From contig OX597814.1 in assembly GCA_951406725.2 (NCBI GenBank), positions 87,358,001 to 87,422,000 of the forward strand: DNA of 64,000 nucleotides, written 5' to 3'. Shown piece by piece: positions 16,041 to 56,250 of this stretch (position 1 is its first letter; each line of letters starts with the position of its first letter). The notes below the pieces were generated by a model, which did not search any database, was not told the DNA's origin, and saw only the letters and a program-made list of their open reading frames with translations. Source of the DNA: Octopus vulgaris. Taxonomy: Eukaryota. The position numbers and the translations under genes were made by a program.

Positions 16041-16951
<911 letters not shown>

Positions 16952-29539: not shown

Positions 29540-30920
29540 TGGTCGTCCACTCGTGACCGAGGAAAACCATTACTGATCATTAGGAACATTGTGCGCTCAA
29601 GACTACCTTATACCTTATACTTGCGATTCTGTTGGTGACTAACGAGCCCTGCTCTTGACAAACATACACGGCTAGCAGTGCGTTTTCGAGCAACACGCTT
29701 AAATTAGTCATAAAGAATACGTGCCCTTTCAAAGGTATCGACTTCCTTCTTTATCTTTTTCCTCCATCCGTGGAGACGACGAACATTACTCTCCCAGTCA
29801 GCCTCCCGTATTTCACAGGCCTTTAATGAGGACTTTATATAGTCCTTAAATCGCAAACTTGGCTTCTGCCGAGGTAGCTGGTTCCACATATGGGTTTCCT
29901 GGTGCAGGCTGGAACCTTACAACAGTCTTGTGCTGTCAAATGCTGATTCCAGAGGCCTTAAAAGAAGCAGAAATATGATTTACAAGTATTTGCAATCATT
30001 CGTTGTATGAGTGACTAAGTCACAGTCATTTGCATAAATGAGGTGACGAATAAGAAACTGGAAAACTTTTGAATTGGCAGTAAATCGATGCATGTTAAAA
30101 AGACGGCCACAGCAAAAGCATGAGTAAGAGTAGCAGCAAAGTACAGAGGAAAGAGAGTTGGAGCAAGGATATCACCCTACTTGACACCATTCTCTACAAG
30201 AATGGGTCCCGCCATGCCACCACCAACATTGACCCAAGCCTCCATCCCATCATGAAATGATTTGATTATTGATACAAAGTGATCCGGACATCCAAGTTTA
30301 CCAAGTATTTTCCATTGGGAGACCCTATTCACAGCATCAATGGCTTTGGTTAAATCAGTGAATACCTGGACAAGATCCATATTCTGTTCATAGCACTTTT
30401 CCTGCATCTGTCTTGCTGTGAAAATCATATCAATCGTTCCTCTTTCGGATCGGAAACCACATTGAGATTCAGATAGGACCTCATTTACAAAACACCTATT
30501 CAGGCGGGTTAGAAGAATGCTTGCTAGAATCTTGCCAGCATTGATAGTAGAGCAATGCCTCTGTTGTCGCACTCTACTCTGGCTCACTTTCCTTTATAGA
30601 GAGGGAGAATAATTGCATCCTTCCAGTCTTTAGGTATTGCACCATCCCTCCAGATTACACTAATAAGTTCATGAAGAGACTGTGTGATGTGATCACCACC
30701 AAATTGCAGGACCTCAGCACAAATACCATCCTTACCAGGAGACTTACTAAGATTCAATTTACTTATTGCTGTCATTACCTCATCTATTGAGGGCGTGGAA
30801 TTTAAGGAGCTAATGACAGGTCTCTGTTGCATAGTGTCAATCACTGCTTCATCAACAGGTGACTCATGGTTTAGGAGTTCAGAAAAATGTTCAATCATGG
30901 CACGCCCACGCCCCTGAGCA
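29540..30920 (-). mobile_element. RTE-clade LINE, degraded (RT domain to 3' end)
   Basis: KSPGKDGI, IPKDWKDAIILPLYKGK, SESQCGFRSERGTIDMIFTARQMQEKCYEQ, DLTKAIDAVNR, LRFKDYIKSSLK; frameshifts and deletions. Confidence 0.92.
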
Positions 30921-40517: not shown

Positions 40518-41787
40518 CAGACATGCAGGAAGTAAAAAGACACCTTTAATTTTCAAAATTTCTGATCTAAGCGTCTTAATATGTTTTCAGCGGTGTAGAA
40601 TTTACAATGTAATTATTCTTTTTTATTCCAGGTGCCATTATATTAAACATTTGCGAAGAGTAACCATGCCACGCACAAAAACATTCAGCAGAACTTTCAG
40701 ATTTTCAAAGAGGTCGTATTGTTGGGCAATCTGAAGCTGGTCTTAGCCAGCGAAAAATTGCTGAAAATCTTCAAATTCCTCTTGCTACTATTAATAGAAT
40801 TATAGTGCAATTCAAAAGCCAAGGAAAAGAATCAACAGATTCTCGTCCCAGCCGACCTGGGCCCTCGGAAAGGAAGCTTCGCTGTTTGAAGAGAATTGTT
40901 GAAAACGAAGCCCCAATGTCGAAGGCTTCTGACATTGCAAAACAGCTAGAAGTTAGTCCAAGAACGTGTGTTACATATCTGCATAAGCTTGGGTACTATG
41001 GACGAGCAGCTAGAAGAAAACGTCTCCTTCAACCAATTAATATCATGAAAAGAAAGAAATGGGCTAAGGAGATGTCAGAAAAATCCAGTTCATTTTGAGA
41101 TAGAGTGATTTTCTCAGATGAATCCAGATTTGCATTATTTTCAGACAGTGGACGTGTTTGGGTCTGGAGGCTTTCCAATCAACCATTTGATTTGAAACGA
41201 CTCCAACCAACTCTGAAACATGGCGGTAGCTCTGTAATGGTATGGGGAGCTGTCACCAGCAATGGTCGTTCTGAGCTGATCGAATGTGTTGAAACCATAA
41301 ACTCTGAAAAATACATCGAAATACTTAAGCAATGACTACTGCCGGTGTATTCGCACGATAATGTAACGAAAAATGAGTTTTTATTCATGGAAGATGGGGC
41401 TCCATGCTACACAGCGAAAAGGAATTAACAATAGCTGACTGAAAATGGGATAAAAAAGCTTCCTTGGCCGAGCCAATCTCCTGACATGGACCCAATTGAA
41501 AATCTTTGGAGCAGACTAGATAGAACTAAACTTGACTGAAACCTAACTCTAAAGATGAATTGTTTCGATTGTTGCATGAAAAGTGGGCAGAAATTCCACA
41601 AGAGACAATCACAAAGCTCATCAGTTCAATGCCAAAAAGAGTTTCTGAATTAAAAACTGTAAAGGGAATGTCAACTAATTACTAAAGAATGTAGTCCTAC
41701 CTATCGATTACATTTCAATTATTCGCTTTGCGTATTAAATAAAAGATTTTGAAAATTAAATGTGTCTATTTACTTCCTGCATGTCTG
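40518..41787 (+). mobile_element. Full-length Tc1-like transposon with inactivated transposase
   Basis: TIR CAGACATGCAGGAAGTAAA(A/T)AGACAC; motifs [36 protein letters not shown]; stops and frameshifts. Confidence 0.93.
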
Positions 41788-43116: not shown

Positions 43117-43208
<92 letters not shown>

Positions 43209-43630
43209 GTGTCTGTGTCTGTGTGTGCGTGTGTGTGTGTACATATACACATATAAACGCAGATACACACACACACAGAGAAAAGTATGTTGGCGGTTGA
43301 ACTAGCTGTCGAGTATGAATGACTGCCTTTAACGCTCAAGTTAAAACTTTAGTACCTTCCTATCATGGGTACTCACTACGACAAAGACGCCAGTGAAGAT
43401 GAAGACTTCACGTTAAACATCTTAGACTCTTCAACGAAGGACGCAAAGGTGTGGGCGACCAGAGAATTTCATGTGCTTCTCGCCTACACAACACCTTCCA
43501 TGCCGCCGAACAAGAGAGGAAACTACTTAATAGCAACAAAATTTCGTTTTCACAAGAGCAGAATGTCCGCCTTCTGTAGATTTCAAGTGAGAGTAGTCTC
43601 CTTCTTGTGCATTTATATACTCGTGTAAAT

Positions 43631-43663
<33 letters not shown>

Positions 43664-44300
43664 GGAATATACACGCACTATTTTATGGTTTGTTGACTAG
43701 AATTAATTTACCTTGTATCAAGTCTTACTGAGAAATATTTACCCAAAAGTATGAGATATCAAGTACGTTTCGTTGGAATATGTTAAACAGACCATTGTGG
43801 GGTTTATTGGGTCATTATGATAGATATTTGGGAACCACTCTATTAAAACATTGGTCATCCCAATTTATTATCCAAAGTATTCTAATGTGGAATACTTTCT
43901 CCGCTTTTTCACAGATTCCTTAGCACTGACCCTAATGAATACCTCCAGCTGTTTCTAGGTTTAATAAATTTTCTCGAGCCTTGGGCGCGATGTAAAATCA
44001 TGACCAACGAGATTTATAAACTTGAGTTATAATGTAAAAAGATTTAGTATATCTTATCCTTAACATCAAACTTTTGCGCAACAGAAAATAGACCGTGTAG
44101 CCTTTGTAAGTTCGTTGTAATATTGTTGAGTCCTATAACCCAGAGGATTGTAGTAACACCACCCAATACTTGATTTCAATGTAGTGTATTTAAAGCCAAT
44201 TTACCTAACAAAACCCATGCTTGTCGAAGCTATACAATAAAATTGAATCCTGCAATTCAAACTAAGTAAGCTCTTATCAATGTCTCCTTGTTGCTGCTTA

Positions 44301-45535
44301 CGAGGACCAGCTTTAAAGCTCATAGGCTGACCAAGATACTCTCATGGAAGGTGACCGAATGAGGTTTATTTTTTTAACATAGTCCCCTTTGCGGTCCACA
44401 CATTACTTCCATCGCTGTTGCAGTGCGTGAATCCCATTGGTGAAGTAGCTTTCATCCTGTTCGTAAAAAAAAAGTCGACAGCAGATATGACGTCATCATC
44501 ATTGCTATACTGGTTTCCATCCAAGTGTTTTTTCATGTTGTGGAACAAATGATAATCAGATGGGGCTACATCAGGAGAATAAGGAGGGTAATCAACCAAT
44601 TCAAAGCCACAGTCATGCTCAGCAGTCATTGACGCCAGGGGCTTGTGCATTAGAGCATATTTCTGATGAAACAAGACACCTTTCGTCATTTTTAATAGCC
44701 GTTTGGTCTTGATAGCCTTTTGTAATTGCCTCAGCAATTTAGCAAAATAATTTCTATTGATGGCGTAGCCCTTTTGAAGATAGTCAATAAACACAATGCC
44801 TTTTGCATCTCAAAACACCGAGGCCATCACCTTCCCTGCAAGTGAAATGACTCAGCATGGATTGTCTTTTTGTGTCTGGTTCAAAGTGGTGAACCCAATA
44901 CTTATCCCGAGTGAGGAAACATTGAAGGAAACCAGCTGGATCTGCCTCAAATAATGTCAGATTTTTCCGTGATGTGATCAGCTTGATGCGCTTTTGATCA
45001 AGTATCACAAGAAGTGGAACCCATCGAGCAGAAATCTTTGTCGTGCCAAGTTCATTGTGCAGAATACTCTCAACTCTCTCAGAGGATATGCTAATGGCAT
45101 TGTTATTTGATTTATAGTCAATCACCTGTCATCCATCAACATGTGGTGAACACGATGAATATTTTTCTCGGTGGTGGCAGTTGCAGGACGTCCAGACGTT
45201 GGATCATCTTCAAGACTCACCCTTACCCTCCTAAATTAAGCTGCCCACTTTTGCGCTGTTGATAAAGCTGGTGCGTCACCCTCTAATGCAGCAATCATGT
45301 CAGCATTAATGTCCTTGGGGGTTAAACCCTTTTTCTGCAGGTTCTTGATAACACCAAGATGACAGATTTTGTTGATTTTCAAGAGAAGTCGCTACTAGTT
45401 ACTTTGAAGGGTCAGATGTCAGCTTACCTGGAAAGAAACAATGCAATTATTAATAAAAAGAGTTGAAATGCAGGATTTCATAGCTCTGGCACCATATCTT
45501 CATTGTCTGCCAATAAACTTTTCAGCCTACCCTCG
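44301..45535 (-). mobile_element. Full-length mariner (DD34D) pseudogenised transposon
   Basis: TA-CGAGG..CCTCG-TA ends; ARWVPLL, WVHHFEPDTKRQSM, YSPDVAPSDYHLF motifs; frameshifted. Confidence 0.92.
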
Positions 45536-45559: not shown

Positions 45560-46270
45560 AGGTTAGATTGACGCTTTAACGTTTCTCTTAAAGATGACGC
45601 TTGCAGGAAAAACATGAGTAGAAAGGAAGTTCCAGAGAACCGATGTTCTGTTAAAGAAGGACTGGGAAAAGCGGTTAGTGAGCATCCTTGGGATAGGGCG
45701 GATACTGTATTGATAATGAGAAGAAGGTAGAAGAGAGGTTCGGGAATAGCTGAGTATAGGTGGTACGATACCTACTTGATCCGAGGAACAGAGGCCATTA
45801 TTGTAGTGTTAGGAAAAACAGAGAGAGAGGAGTTACCTATAAGGCCGGAATGTGTTTGTGGAAGTAGCCTGACATCTTTGTGTGTAGCTCATGTTTACGG
45901 GAGTCCCTAAAATAAGTAGGGTTTGTGTGGAGAGAGAGGGTTGTGGTGGTGGATGTTGTTGAAAGAGACAAAATTGGCATAGCCCCTCTGGAGATGCTTT
46001 TGAAATGTCCGTTTATGGGGGTTAGTGCAGGTTTTATACAAGAAGTCAAGTTTGCATGTGTATGATGCGCGGTTGGGAAAAGATGGGAGGAATAAAGTTT
46101 CCTATCAACAAGTAAAATTCGGAATTGTCGGTCATGACAGCAAGCGGGCTATTGATGCATAGAAGTGAAAAAGCGGAGGTAGAGGAAACAGCCAACCAGA
46201 GTTGACTGAGTGAAGAATAAAAAGAGCTCCGCCAGCATATACCGTGGTAGTGCGACCTGAGATGAGAGGT
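45560..46270 (-). mobile_element. L2/CR1-group (Daphne-like) LINE remnant
   Basis: Minus strand NGLCSS..VPP..FSQSFFNRTSVLWNFLSTHVFP C-terminal motif. Confidence 0.55.
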
Positions 46271-46799
46271 TTCCATAGAAAATTGTATGCCAAACACGGT
46301 CAAAAGTTTAGCTTATAACTAGAGTAACGACACTGTTTTTTTCTCCGATACACTAAAAAATAAAACACTTCTATGTCATTCTTCACAATTACATCTACTT
46401 TTTTCAATAAATTGTTTTACAGCAAGTGCAAGACCTTTACTTCTGGCGTTACTATCAAAAACAGAAATTAAAAATAGGCAACATAACAAAAAGTAGCCAT
46501 AATTATAAAAAGAAATAGAACAAAAGAAGTTAACACGAAGAATTAGCATCAACTGAATCATTTGAAAGATTTTAAAAGATTGCTACATTTGGGAAGATAA
46601 ACAAATTCAAATTCACAAAATTTTGAAAGAAATAACAGATTAATCTATATAATGGAATCCTTGCCAATCAATAAAAATTCTGTTGGTTTCTTCAAAATAA
46701 AGCGTTCTCTGGCACAAAAGCGTTTATATCTGACGGCATTTTAAAATAGAATCAGTCAGTATAATGTCTATATATAGTTAACAATTTAAGTATTTTAAG

Positions 46800-48563
46800 A
46801 TGCCGTCAAATGTTGCAATGGTAGAAATATGTTACAGCTGTAAAGAAAAATTTTGTTGTTCTTCATCATGTCCTTATGATAAATTACCTGCATTACTGAG
46901 CTGCCAACATCTAATTTGTTACGGTTGCATCCAACGGATTTGGGTAAATCTTGATATTGACGACAACAACAAGCTCTTGTGTCCCGTATGTAATATTCTT
47001 ACATTTCTATCACCGTCCACACATCATATTTCATTCTACTTCAACAAATTCTGTAGTAACTGCGCTATCAAAAACGGACAGATTAGAAATAAACTTAGAG
47101 AGAAACGTACTGAACAATCATTGATCACAATCCGACCTGAAACAAGCATTGCATTTGGAAGTAGTTCAACTCCTCAGGAGAGAAATGGTTGTGATAGTGG
47201 AAGTAATCTTCGAATTGTACAAGTTGGCATCGGAGATATAAATATTTCTGGCAGACCTTCCCAAAATGTTGAATCAAACTTGGCTAATCAGGAAGCCAAT
47301 AGTAAAGACAAACAAATCGTCACGAAAAGTCGAAACCAATCAAATTCTAAGAAATTATTTAAAAAACAGAAGAAAAATAGCCAACAAAAGACTTCTCATT
47401 CCGGACATTCCCAAATGAAAAACGAGAGAAATTCTCAGAAAACCACACGGAATTCCATCCCGGACACAAAAGCAAAGAAACTAGTACCACCCCACCAAAC
47501 AAGAACGAATTTGAATACTTCTATTGATGGAAAGATAGAGAAAAACTTAAACCAAGATATCAAAAACTCAGCAAATAAAGAAATATTGCCCTCTGTTTCT
47601 GAAAAGAGTTCAATGGGACCACACCATGAACAGGATTCAGAATATGGCCGAGCTTACTCAAGACTTTCCTCCTCCAGTAACTCCAGTGGTGAAACAGACA
47701 TCAAGACTAACAACACTTCTAATTCACAATTAAATAAACTCGATTCCAAAACGGATTCCACTATAGTAAAATCTTCGACTCAAAAAGGTTGCCGAGTTAA
47801 GAATAATAGAACATCAAATAGAGAAAGTAATATTGTCAAAACAACGCAACACACGCAAAAGAAGGATTCACGAAATACCTTATTACCTAGAGAGGGTCTT
47901 CAAATTCCCGTCTCATTAAATGTCGACGATCTTGTTGAAACACGAACAAGCACTTCAACACAAAGCTTACCTAACATGTCATTGTTGAGTTGTTGTAAAT
48001 ACGACGTTGAAGGGAAATCCAAATCCAATACCACAAATGTAACGAGCAGTAATTTGGGACAAAACGGGAATGGTGGAGTGAGAAGAAATGGTGGAAGTTT
48101 AAGTGATGACGCTAGCAATATAAATCAAAGAAAAGTTCGGAGCAGTGGTCGAAACAGGAAACCCGGCAGTAAAATGCATTGGAAAATGAAACCTATCGAA
48201 GATGATTCTGACACTGAGTGCATTCCACCATTACGTAAAAGGGGTTTCCTCTATCGAAGAGAATGTTTTAAAATCCTAGATTGTATATATAACAATGAAA
48301 AGAGCGAACTGTTTCGACACGAGATTAAGTCGAAATACGTCAGTGATTATTACAAAGTTGTCAAGAGAGGAATGTGTTTAGATATCATTGCTTACAAGAT
48401 ACGTAACAATATTTATACCCACGTAAAAGAATTTTCTACCGATATGTATCGGATATTTGACAATTGTCGACTGTACAATCAATATGGATCTGAAGCCTAT
48501 GAGGCTGCTAACATCGTACAAAATTTGTTCAATCAGAAGATGATAGAATGCTTTTCAAATTAA
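46800..48563 (+). CDS. RING finger (C3HC4) + bromodomain protein, uninterrupted 587-aa ORF
   Basis: C11-x2-C14-x20-C35-x-H37-x2-C40-x2-C43-x17-C61-x2-C64 RING; S/N/K/Q/T-rich linker; aa ~488-585 ELF..DYYKVVKRGMCL..I..KI..Y..EF..DM.RIFDNCRLYN..SE.Y..A bromodomain with conserved Asn560; in-frame stop upstream at 46779-46781. Confidence 0.9.
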   Translation: MPSNVAMVEICYSCKEKFCCSSSCPYDKLPALLSCQHLICYGCIQRIWVNLDIDDNNKLLCPVCNILTFLSPSTHHISFYFNKFCSNCAIKNGQIRNKLREKRTEQSLITIRPETSIAFGSSSTPQERNGCDSGSNLRIVQVGIGDINISGRPSQNVESNLANQEANSKDKQIVTKSRNQSNSKKLFKKQKKNSQQKTSHSGHSQMKNERNSQKTTRNSIPDTKAKKLVPPHQTRTNLNTSIDGKIEKNLNQDIKNSANKEILPSVSEKSSMGPHHEQDSEYGRAYSRLSSSSNSSGETDIKTNNTSNSQLNKLDSKTDSTIVKSSTQKGCRVKNNRTSNRESNIVKTTQHTQKKDSRNTLLPREGLQIPVSLNVDDLVETRTSTSTQSLPNMSLLSCCKYDVEGKSKSNTTNVTSSNLGQNGNGGVRRNGGSLSDDASNINQRKVRSSGRNRKPGSKMHWKMKPIEDDSDTECIPPLRKRGFLYRRECFKILDCIYNNEKSELFRHEIKSKYVSDYYKVVKRGMCLDIIAYKIRNNIYTHVKEFSTDMYRIFDNCRLYNQYGSEAYEAANIVQNLFNQKMIECFSN

Positions 48564-48726
48564 CATGCTATGATCAACATAATCTAATAACTTAAGCGAA
48601 ATGTAACACAAAGCCACTCGTTGCTCTAACATTATATTCATGAATATTATCTAACATATACATACATACATACATACATACATACATACATACATACATA
48701 CATACATACATACATACATACATACA

Positions 48727-48757
<31 letters not shown>

Positions 48758-55419: not shown

Positions 55420-56250
55420 TATAGAAAATTTAGGTCTCCCACTAATAAAGGGGATCTTCACAGTCAGTCCACTGAAACAATGACGGAAATTTCCTATGAT
55501 ATGGACGAACTGACCATGTACATAACTGATAATATTCCACTGTCATGGAAAGTATTAACAATAATATAGGAGGACTTTATTTCTTAGATGCTCCAGGAGG
55601 TACTGGGAAAACATTTGTGATTAAACTCCTCCGGGCTAAAGTTCGTCAAGAAAAGAAAATAGCTTTAGTTATTGCTACTTCTGGGATTGCAGGAATATTA
55701 CTACCCGGAGGTCGGGCTGCCCACACAACGTTCAAGTTGCCTTTAGATCTATTCTAACAAGGAAGATCCAGTTTGTAATATATTTAAAAATTCTGAAATA
55801 GGTGACCTAATACAACGATGTCACTTAATTGTCTGGGACGAATGTACTCTGGCCCACAAAAAAGCTTTTGAATCTGTGGTCAGAACATTACGGAGATATT
55901 AGAAATTGTAATCCCATGATGGGAAATGTCAGTGTTATTGCCAGGAGACTTCCGACGAACACTACCAATTGTTCCAAGAAGAACCAAAGTGGATGAGCTC
56001 AGTGCTTCAATAAAGTCTTCTGTATTATGGCACCATGTGAAAACACTTCAACTTTCGACAAATAAGAGATCAATCAGTTGAACCATTTGCAAAGCAGCTT
56101 TTGAAACTCGGTAAAGGGAGAACTGCAATTGATGAGGAACAGTTTCTTACACTCAATCCAGTATGTAATTCAGCTGATTCCGTCGATGATTTGGTGGCTG
56201 AAATCTTTCCGAATCTTCTTCATAATTGCAACAATACAGATTGGATACAG
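55420..56250 (+). mobile_element. Helitron RepHel PIF1-like helicase pseudogene fragment
   Basis: FLDAPGGTGKTF (Walker A), ATSGIAGILLPGGRAAHTTFKLPL, LIVWDEC (Walker B), GDFRRTLPIVP; stops and frameshifts. Confidence 0.9.

What the first reader, a model, noticed from the sequence alone, without database searches (positions are those of the whole stretch)
46800..48563. Intronless RING-bromodomain gene with an unusual architecture
Seen: a 1764-bp uninterrupted ORF amid decayed repeats, with a complete C3HC4 RING (46830-46991), a ~420-aa polar linker with basic NLS-like patches, and a terminal bromodomain (~48261-48555). Established: RING plus bromodomain is typical of TIF1/TRIM24/28/33, but those also have B-boxes, a coiled coil and a PHD. 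Here no PHD precedes the bromodomain and only a lone CSNC follows the RING. The bromodomain end (DMYRIFDNCRLYN) looks more like BPTF/GCN5/CECR2 than TIF1. Inference: a lineage-specific chimeric or retroposed gene for an acetyl-lysine-guided E3 ligase.
Basis: partly seen in the sequence, partly recalled or inferred. Interest (0 to 1): 0.75.

Follow-up and report, generated by a model that had tools for sequence, protein, structure and literature searches.

The report
Intronless octopus member, overlooked bromodomain family
This is a real, conserved, single-exon octopus gene for a RING-finger-plus-bromodomain protein; it belongs to an unnamed bromodomain family also present in scallops, snails, annelids, a brachiopod and a horseshoe crab, has likely lost its introns by retroposition, and is predicted to read acetylated chromatin, with ubiquitin-ligase activity untested and doubtful.

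Summary
The ORF, RING and bromodomain are real, at the stated coordinates. Orthologues exist in other octopuses and Argonauta (domains 82-99% identical, linker 53-91%). Colinear RNA-like contigs cover the ORF without splicing, and the 8 listed differences in codons 1-72 are all synonymous. It is not a cephalopod chimera. Its bromodomain belongs to an unnamed subfamily: 15 rows form one side of a branch (98/92), at 32-51% identity outside octopods versus 25-30% to TIF1, BPTF or GCN5. Members occur in scallops, gastropods, a chiton, annelids, a brachiopod and a horseshoe crab. Two scallop members carry the same N-terminal RING with the same spacing, so the architecture predates the cephalopod-bivalve split. 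A canonical multi-exon TIF1 lies elsewhere in the genome; TIF1 ancestry of the family is neither shown nor rejected. Two relatives appear to have bromodomain introns and no spliced parent was found here, suggesting retrogene replacement. The octopod pocket keeps the acetyl-lysine Asn, but 7 of 15 members lose it. The RING lacks the basic linchpin and one hydrophobic E2 contact, so a chromatin reader/scaffold fits better than an acetyl-guided E3 ligase.

The parts
46555..46799 (+). 5' UTR, colinear with the genome (at least 245 nt in one contig; true start unknown)
   Evidence: X11 contig starts at 46555 and X1 at 46734, both running into the ORF without a joint; X8 piece starts at 46784
46800..48563 (+). 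Single-exon ORF, 587 aa (P0001): RING + disordered linker + bromodomain
   Evidence: orthologues; unspliced contigs
46830..46991 (+). C3HC4 RING (C11-C64), TRIM-like; W48 and P62 present, linchpin position N65, TRIM25-L17 position K15
   Evidence: same spacing in two scallop proteins
47052..47063 (+). Lone CSNC (C85, C88); invariant Cys in 4 octopods, absent from the scallop proteins; possible B-box1 remnant or part of an extra zinc site
   Evidence: role inferred
47100..48173 (+). Fast-evolving S/N/K/T-rich basic linker, predicted disordered; tolerates only frame-preserving indels in the data seen
   Evidence: 53-91% identity among octopods; net indels of 3, 9, 12 and 78 nt; pLDDT <35 in a low-confidence model
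48195..48248 (+). Family signature before the bromodomain: acidic/Ser patch, E-x-I-P, then basic R/K-R-G-F
   Evidence: conserved across molluscan, annelid and brachiopod members
48264..48554 (+). Bromodomain of the unnamed subfamily; Y517, Y559, N560 kept; E508 replaces the usual Pro and G-M-C replaces P-M-D; A566 at N+6
48564..48654 (+). Start of the 3' UTR, up to a (ATAC)25 microsatellite at 48658-48756
   Evidence: X1 and X3 contigs reach 48654; repeat

Best explanation
This is the single functional octopod member of an old, unnamed protostome bromodomain family (N-terminal RING, long polar linker, one C-terminal bromodomain), likely made intronless by retroposition with loss of the spliced parent, and it likely works as a nuclear chromatin reader and scaffold rather than as a strong stand-alone E3 ligase. 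Shown: the gene, its conservation, unspliced RNA-like cover, family membership, and the shared RING-bromodomain layout with scallops. Inferred mechanism: the basic linker brings it into the nucleus and onto nucleosomal DNA; the bromodomain (Y517/Y559/N560 intact, ZA loop remodelled) docks on an acetylated or otherwise acylated histone lysine; the RING recruits partners, or pairs with another RING, and ubiquitinates only weakly or conditionally. Approximate odds: family membership 0.9, retroposition as the route of intron loss 0.65, acyl-lysine reading by the octopod protein 0.6, strong autonomous E3 activity 0.25.
For: Family: a profile search of 1.84 billion representatives found long single-bromodomain proteins from three scallops, abalone, chiton, Owenia, Lamellibrachia, Lingula and Tachypleus, plus Gigantopelta. 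A profile built without octopods scores the octopod domains 153-158 bits against at most 93 for any other row (TIF1 87.6, BPTF 86.1). In the ML tree the 15 family rows form one side of a branch at 98/92, with octopods beside scallops at 94/74. The annelid member finds the window gene as best hit in the own genome (4e-28; next 2e-8). RING: the octopod RING profile hits residues 9-69 and 12-62 of two scallop proteins (E 3e-5 and 3e-6 in a 12-sequence set), with the same 17-residue C6-C7 loop and Q-x-x-W. Intron loss: only 1 of 26 bromodomain matches in the genome covers the whole Pfam model in one frame, and it is this gene. Two family ORFs from unnamed contigs match only from VPDYY to two residues past the BC-loop Tyr and read into unrelated sequence on both sides, exactly where the genome's own TIF1 and C15a genes have phase-0 introns. 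Function under selection: 8 of 8 listed X1 differences in codons 1-72 are synonymous (chance 2e-4 with a transitions-only null); the bromodomain is 94% identical to Argonauta against 53% for the linker. RNA-like runs cover the ORF but not unique flanks, while a DNA-like run covers both.
Against: No binding or activity was measured. The acetyl-lysine Asn is Tyr or His in 7 of 15 family rows, and the conserved Pro and Asp of the ZA loop are replaced almost throughout, so the family may not read acetyl-lysine canonically. The RING is found in only 6 of 15 family proteins (4 octopod, 2 scallop). The scallop RING match is weak, and a generic TRIM RING from the own genome scores higher (26 bits versus 14-17). 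Introns in relatives are inferred from read-through ORFs, not from gene models. No poly-A remnant or target-site duplication is visible (by eye). The runs are labelled 'RNA?' or '?' and give no strand or tissue. No squid or cuttlefish member was found, so the date of intron loss is open.
Confidence: 0.6

Rival explanations
1. An acetyl-lysine-guided E3 ligase: the bromodomain targets acetylated chromatin and the RING ubiquitinates a histone or a neighbouring protein.
For: All 8 RING ligands, W48 and P62 are kept; the RING is 85-100% identical across octopods and under purifying selection. Its nearest solved RINGs include TRIM25 and TRIM32. TRIM32 is active with Ser at the linchpin (passage in PMC11992055).
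Against: The linchpin position is Asn (Thr in scallops), and Lys15 sits where TRIM25 has the E2-contacting Leu17, an Arg in inactive TRIM28 (passages; positions). No B-box or recognised coiled coil is there to oligomerise the RING. The scallop RINGs have also lost the Pro of the last Cys pair. Isolated TRIM24/28/33 RINGs show no ligase activity.
Confidence: 0.25
2. The family is an early duplicate of TIF1 (bonus/TRIM24/33) that lost its B-boxes, coiled coil and PHD; the CSNC is a B-box1 remnant. This concerns origin and is compatible with the best explanation.
For: Same terminal domains in the same order. With the family profile, TRIM24 is the best animal single bromodomain in PDB (89.8 bits versus BPTF 83.5) and own TIF1 is the best own-genome row. 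The two inferred family introns match own TIF1 introns and not BPTF or GCN5. Own TIF1 has an F-Y and a CxxC after its RING, as the window protein does. The AU test does not reject family+TIF1 (p 0.41).
Against: The ML tree does not place TIF1 as sister; an 80/94 branch separates them. Yeast Gcn5 scores higher than TRIM24 (92.5). The family lacks TIF1's three-residue insertion and its one-residue-shorter ZA loop. The C15a gene shares both introns as well. The own BPTF and GCN5 rows lacked helix Z, which favours TIF1. Structural Z-scores are tied.
Confidence: 0.4
3. A young cephalopod-specific chimera of a TRIM RING and a BPTF/GCN5-type bromodomain.
For: Word-based searches of the 322-1028 aa range found only octopod proteins. 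The linker has no similarity to the scallop linkers.
Against: The bromodomain is 48-51% identical to scallop members against 30% to own BPTF and GCN5, and the scallop members have the RING. Independent fusion of a RING at residue 9-11 with the same loop length onto the same bromodomain subfamily would be needed.
Confidence: 0.05
4. A non-functional processed pseudogene or transposon-captured fragment.
For: It sits among transposon remnants; a decayed partial copy exists on C14.
Against: Intact in four octopod proteins, synonymous bias, frame-preserving indels and RNA-like cover.
Confidence: 0.02

Closest known systems
TIF1 / class VI TRIM (TRIM24, TRIM28, TRIM33, Drosophila bonus)
   Same: N-terminal C3HC4 RING and C-terminal bromodomain; similar helix Z (C..L/I.....S..F); same two bromodomain intron points inferred in relatives; RING lacks some E2-contact residues, as in TRIM28
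   Different: No B-box, PHD or recognised coiled coil; bromodomain only 28% identical to the genome's own TIF1, which exists as a separate multi-exon gene on C11; single exon
Family I bromodomains (BPTF, GCN5/PCAF, CECR2)
   Same: ZA-loop length and helix B-C sequence similar; top structural matches, Z 19.0-19.6, tied with BAZ2 and TRIM24
   Different: 25-30% identity only; no HAT or PHD domain; different intron points; no aromatic residue at N+6; own BPTF and GCN5 lie on C4 and C9
Database entries for the same family (A0A0L8GMM8, GAB1598222.1, XP_021340651.1, XP_069122075.1, XP_033763372.1, XP_046560879.1, XP_041370808.1, XP_064616354.1, CAH1785602.1, KAI0211515.1, XP_013400130.1, XP_076315741.1)
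   Same: Same bromodomain subfamily, with the pre-domain signature in most; a single bromodomain near the C-terminus; RING in octopods and two scallops
   Different: Labelled inconsistently (uncharacterized, TAF1-like, BAZ2B, GCN5, mucin-17, serine-rich adhesin); non-octopod full-length members are 1,200-2,200 aa; the octopod form is 557-590 aa and intronless
Retrogene replacement, e.g. amphioxus SYCP1 (PMC5803294; search listing and start of abstract only)
   Same: Single-exon functional copy with no spliced parent found in the genome
   Different: Here the parent's introns are inferred from two read-through ORFs, and synteny was not tested

Membership tests
TIF1 / class VI TRIM | N-terminal C3HC4 RING | tested here: met
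TIF1 / class VI TRIM | One or two B-boxes | tested here: not met
   No Pfam or motif hit in the window protein or relatives; only CSNC; contigs add no exon
TIF1 / class VI TRIM | Long coiled coil | tested here: inconclusive
   Linker is polar with few hydrophobics and the model shows no helix over 106-484, but pLDDT is <50 there; no coiled-coil predictor was run
TIF1 / class VI TRIM | PHD finger directly before the bromodomain | tested here: not met
TIF1 / class VI TRIM | Being the genome's TIF1 orthologue | tested here: not met
   A canonical RING-B-box-CC-PHD-bromodomain gene is on C11; its bromodomain exon's best single-domain PDB match is TRIM33
TIF1 / class VI TRIM | Bromodomain descended from the TIF1 clade | tested here: inconclusive
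   Not sister in the ML tree; AU p 0.41
BPTF / GCN5 / CECR2 / TAF1 | Companion domains (HAT, PHD, DDT, tandem bromodomains) | tested here: not met
   Pfam shows one bromodomain and a weak RING only
BPTF / GCN5 / CECR2 / TAF1 | Bromodomain nested with these genes | tested here: not met
   A starred branch joins it to the unnamed family instead; 27-30% identity to own BPTF, GCN5 and TAF1-BD2. Own CECR2 was not identified with certainty; labels of own genes other than TIF1 rest on recalled motifs
Unnamed protostome RING-linker-bromodomain family | Bromodomain clade and reciprocal best hit | tested here: met
   98/92 branch; 153-158 versus at most 93 bits; reciprocal search
Unnamed protostome RING-linker-bromodomain family | Signature residues: Glu at 508, no Asp at 526, E-x-I-P..R-G-F before helix Z | tested here: met
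   E508 in 14 of 15 (Pro in 7 of 7 controls); D526 in 0 of 15 (7 of 7 controls)
Unnamed protostome RING-linker-bromodomain family | N-terminal RING shared outside cephalopods | tested here: met
   2 of 11 non-octopod members (both scallops); absent from the other 9 predicted proteins, some of them short or apparently truncated
Canonical acetyl-lysine-binding bromodomain | Four-helix fold, ZA-loop Tyr, BC-loop Tyr-Asn | tested here: met
   roles of these residues recalled
Canonical acetyl-lysine-binding bromodomain | Measured acetyl-lysine binding | not testable with these tools
   needs peptide arrays or ITC
Active RING E3 ligase | Basic linchpin after the last CxxC, and a hydrophobic residue at the TRIM25-L17 position | tested here: not met
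   N65 and K15; criteria from passages of PMC11992055 and PMC6487577, which also note active exceptions
Active RING E3 ligase | Ubiquitin transfer in vitro | not testable with these tools
   needs E2 discharge assays
Retrogene | Intronless where relatives have introns | tested here: met
   relatives' introns inferred from two read-through ORFs
Retrogene | Poly-A remnant, target-site duplication, spliced parent or broken synteny | tested here: inconclusive
   No A-tail seen by eye; no parent found; synteny not testable

The most novel reading that the evidence does not exclude
A protostome-wide chromatin-reader family that model-organism catalogues missed: a TIF1 offshoot stripped to RING + disordered linker + a remodelled bromodomain whose pocket switches between Asn and Tyr/His across lineages and reads a non-standard acyl mark, kept in octopods only as a compact retrogene with strongly sample-restricted (possibly germ-line) expression.
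Probability: 0.25. Interest if true: 0.75.

Novelty: new variant of a known kind. Interest (0 to 1): 0.5.

Why it matters
Bromodomain families are catalogued from human, fly, worm and yeast. This gene marks a further animal subfamily, with members in molluscs, annelids, a brachiopod and a chelicerate, that databases mislabel as TAF1-, BAZ2B- or GCN5-like. Its pocket differs from the control bromodomains at positions that are otherwise nearly fixed, and it varies at the acetyl-lysine Asn, giving a natural series for testing bromodomain specificity. The octopod copy is short and single-exon, so it is the easiest member to express, and it is a candidate case of retrogene replacement in cephalopods. 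It is not evidence of a cephalopod-specific invention.

Tried and rejected
(1) C14 hit as a spliced parent: rejected. It is a ~230-bp copy with frameshifts and a stop, 80-88% identical, split by an expanded (TA)n at a native TATATA rather than by an intron, and it runs through the VSDYY point unspliced. (2) C3 RING hit as a paralogue: a separate long-frame TRIM-like RING gene, 36% identical over the RING only. (3) The X11 loose end after 48598 as a 3' splice: its letters are in neither the window nor the genome, there is no GT at the joint, a DNA-like run's contig also stops at 48597, and X1 and X3 read through. (4) The X8 joint 47434-47520 as an intron: TC..CT ends, net 78 nt, the same length as the in-frame gap in P0002. 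(5) Whole-protein AF2 model: pLDDT 30, uninformative. Whole-protein ESM Atlas search: no usable hit. (6) RING homodimer prediction: no answer, score 0.00, alignment not used; no evidence either way. (7) Runs: no RNA holder is on record; 9 of 24 listed runs held next to none of the words, which is no evidence on expression. Tissue is unknown. (8) Structure search cannot rank subfamilies; Z-scores are tied. (9) Literature: ten searches; no listing described this family, and six accession/LOC ids gave 0 papers in main texts. The 5 held supplement files of PMC6708199 hold none of the scallop ids; a recalled DOI led to an unrelated octopus paper with no mention of bromodomain. Subscription papers and most supplements are not searched, so prior description is not excluded. 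(10) Earlier scan findings: none. (11) No squid, cuttlefish, insect, nematode or deuterostome member was recognised, but only the best 150 of 1,581 profile hits were listed, most unnamed, and the second search covered 236-2,000 aa by shared words; absence is not shown.

Full report
Observation. The window is G000:C1:87358001-87422000 of a 2.8-Gb animal genome. Bases 46800-48563 (+) are one 587-aa ORF, by far the longest in the window; 100 base-shuffled windows gave at most 208 aa. Pfam finds a bromodomain at 489-571 (E 7e-20) and sub-threshold RING hits. The first 100 residues match mostly TRIM RINGs in PDB (best E 0.001) and C3HC4 clusters in the ESM Atlas (0.93). Of 255 low-repeat window frames of 55 aa or more, 137 plus one further frame were scanned; 5 of 138 hit Pfam, all transposon-type. 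Shorter host exons were not tested.

It is a functional gene. Orthologues are O. bimaculoides A0A0L8GMM8 (94%), an unnamed Logan protein (81-86%) and Argonauta hians GAB1598222.1 (62-67%); this is why I call the animal an octopus. Against Argonauta, residues 1-100 are 82% identical, the bromodomain 94% and the linker 53%. Three runs (two studies) hold one contig over all or nearly all of the ORF at depth 239-282, with no cover of the unique flanks at 43200-44291 and 45566-45747 and no joint listed in the ORF (joint table cut). A DNA-like run covers flank and ORF alike. Four other RNA-like runs gave only low-depth fragments. The runs are guessed or unlabelled as RNA, and contigs show neither strand nor level, so uneven expression is only a hint. 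The 8 listed X1 differences in codons 1-72 are all synonymous (p 2e-4, transitions-only null). A linker stretch in X8 has 9 synonymous and 23 non-synonymous changes over 72 and 279 sites, about 0.66, so it is relaxed. The listed ORF indels preserve the frame.

It is not TIF1 and not a young chimera. A canonical multi-exon TIF1 (RING, two B-boxes, coiled coil, PHD, bromodomain) lies on C11. A profile of the four octopod proteins against 1.84 billion representatives returned, among many multi-bromodomain proteins, single-bromodomain proteins from Mizuhopecten, Argopecten, Pecten, Haliotis, Liolophura, Owenia, Lamellibrachia, Lingula and Tachypleus. Ridgeia came as a cluster member, and a second search added Gigantopelta. 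Over 173 stored proteins, family members outside the training set scored 155-189 bits and the best non-member 83. A profile without octopods scored the octopod domains 153-158 against at most 93. The tree used 56 of 76 rows (20 background rows dropped; P0155, P0085 and P0149 never included; 8 own-genome rows under half filled) and 121 columns. The 15 family rows form one side of a branch at 98/92, octopods beside scallops at 94/74. The annelid member's best hit in G000 is this gene (4e-28, next 2e-8). Mizuhopecten and Argopecten members begin with a C3HC4 RING at residue 9, with the same 17-residue loop and Q-x-x-W as the octopod RING, so the layout predates the cephalopod-bivalve split. Against: that RING match is weak, an unrelated TRIM RING scores higher, and 9 of 11 non-octopod proteins show no RING.

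Where the family comes from is open. TRIM24 is the best animal single bromodomain for the family profile (89.8 bits; BPTF 83.5; yeast Gcn5 92.5). The inferred family introns match those of TIF1 and C15a but not BPTF or GCN5. However, the ML tree does not make TIF1 the sister; the AU test neither shows nor rejects the union (p 0.41); and structural matches to CECR2, BPTF, PCAF, BAZ2 and TRIM24 are tied at Z about 19. Labels of own-genome genes other than TIF1 rest on recalled motifs.

Intron loss. Of 26 bromodomain matches in G000, only this one spans the Pfam model in a single frame. Two family ORFs from unnamed contigs (P0085, P0149; best hits are family rows) match only from VPDYY to just past the BC-loop Tyr and read into unrelated sequence on both sides, the pattern of an exon between two introns. 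The same two points are phase-0 introns in own TIF1. No spliced copy was found in G000 by protein, DNA or annelid query; only a decayed C14 fragment turned up, and the tool scores only its best candidates. Retroposition with loss of the parent is the simplest reading (about 0.65); intron loss in place is not excluded.

How it likely works (inferred). The bromodomain folds canonically (pLDDT 86) and keeps Y517, Y559 and N560, the residues recalled as the acetyl-lysine anchors. The family is remodelled: Glu508 replaces Pro in 14 of 15 rows, the Asp of P-M-D is absent in 15 of 15, and the Asn is Tyr or His in 7 of 15. The octopod N+6 residue is Ala (gatekeeper position recalled). The RING keeps W48 and P62 but has Asn at the linchpin and Lys at the TRIM25-Leu17 position. 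Passages of PMC11992055 and PMC6487577 ('find' passages only) tie such changes to inactive TRIM RINGs, report no activity for isolated TRIM24/28/33 RINGs, and note active exceptions such as TRIM32. I therefore favour a nuclear reader/scaffold: the basic disordered linker gives import and DNA contact, the bromodomain gives acyl-lysine docking, and the RING serves as a partner surface with weak or conditional ligase activity.

Novelty. The parts are known, but I found no description of this subfamily in ten library searches (listings only), and databases label members inconsistently. Subscription papers and most supplements could not be searched. Verdict: a new variant of a known kind; real and moderately interesting (0.5), less exotic than a cephalopod-specific chimera but pointing to an overlooked animal bromodomain family.

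Noticed in passing
G000:C14:9648611-9649128 (L002, L105, L106), minus strand: Decayed ~230-bp copy of the bromodomain 5' part (80-88% identical, frameshifts, stop), split by a ~270-bp (TA)n expansion at a native TATATA; an isolated fragment of the intronless gene.
   Followed up: yes
G000:C3:173665310 onward (L042:1483-3177): Another long single open frame (632 aa) with a TRIM-like RING and a coiled-coil-like stretch but no B-box hit in Pfam; possibly another stripped, intronless TRIM.
   Followed up: partly
G000:C11:75879887-75883051: The first TIF1 exon encodes about 1,000 aa of low-complexity N/T/S/Q/A runs ahead of the RING, an unusually long N-terminus.
   Followed up: no
window 46854-46871, 47025-47027, 47052-47063: Extra C19, C24, H76, C85 and C88 are invariant in the four octopod proteins and could form a third zinc site beside the RING.
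   Followed up: no
window 46652-46750: An upstream ATG opens a short ORF of about 32 codons inside the stretch that the X11 contig covers as 5' UTR (read).
   Followed up: no
window 16236-16475, 30180-30593, 40664-41095, 44369-45128, 55533-55754: Transposon remnants: Mos1-type HTH, reverse transcriptase, Tc1-type transposase, mariner DDE fragment, PIF1-like helicase.
   Followed up: partly
G000:C19:47980842-47986022 and C15:41109090-41111095: Two own-genome bromodomain genes that I could not name with confidence; the C15 one shares both bromodomain intron points with TIF1.
   Followed up: partly
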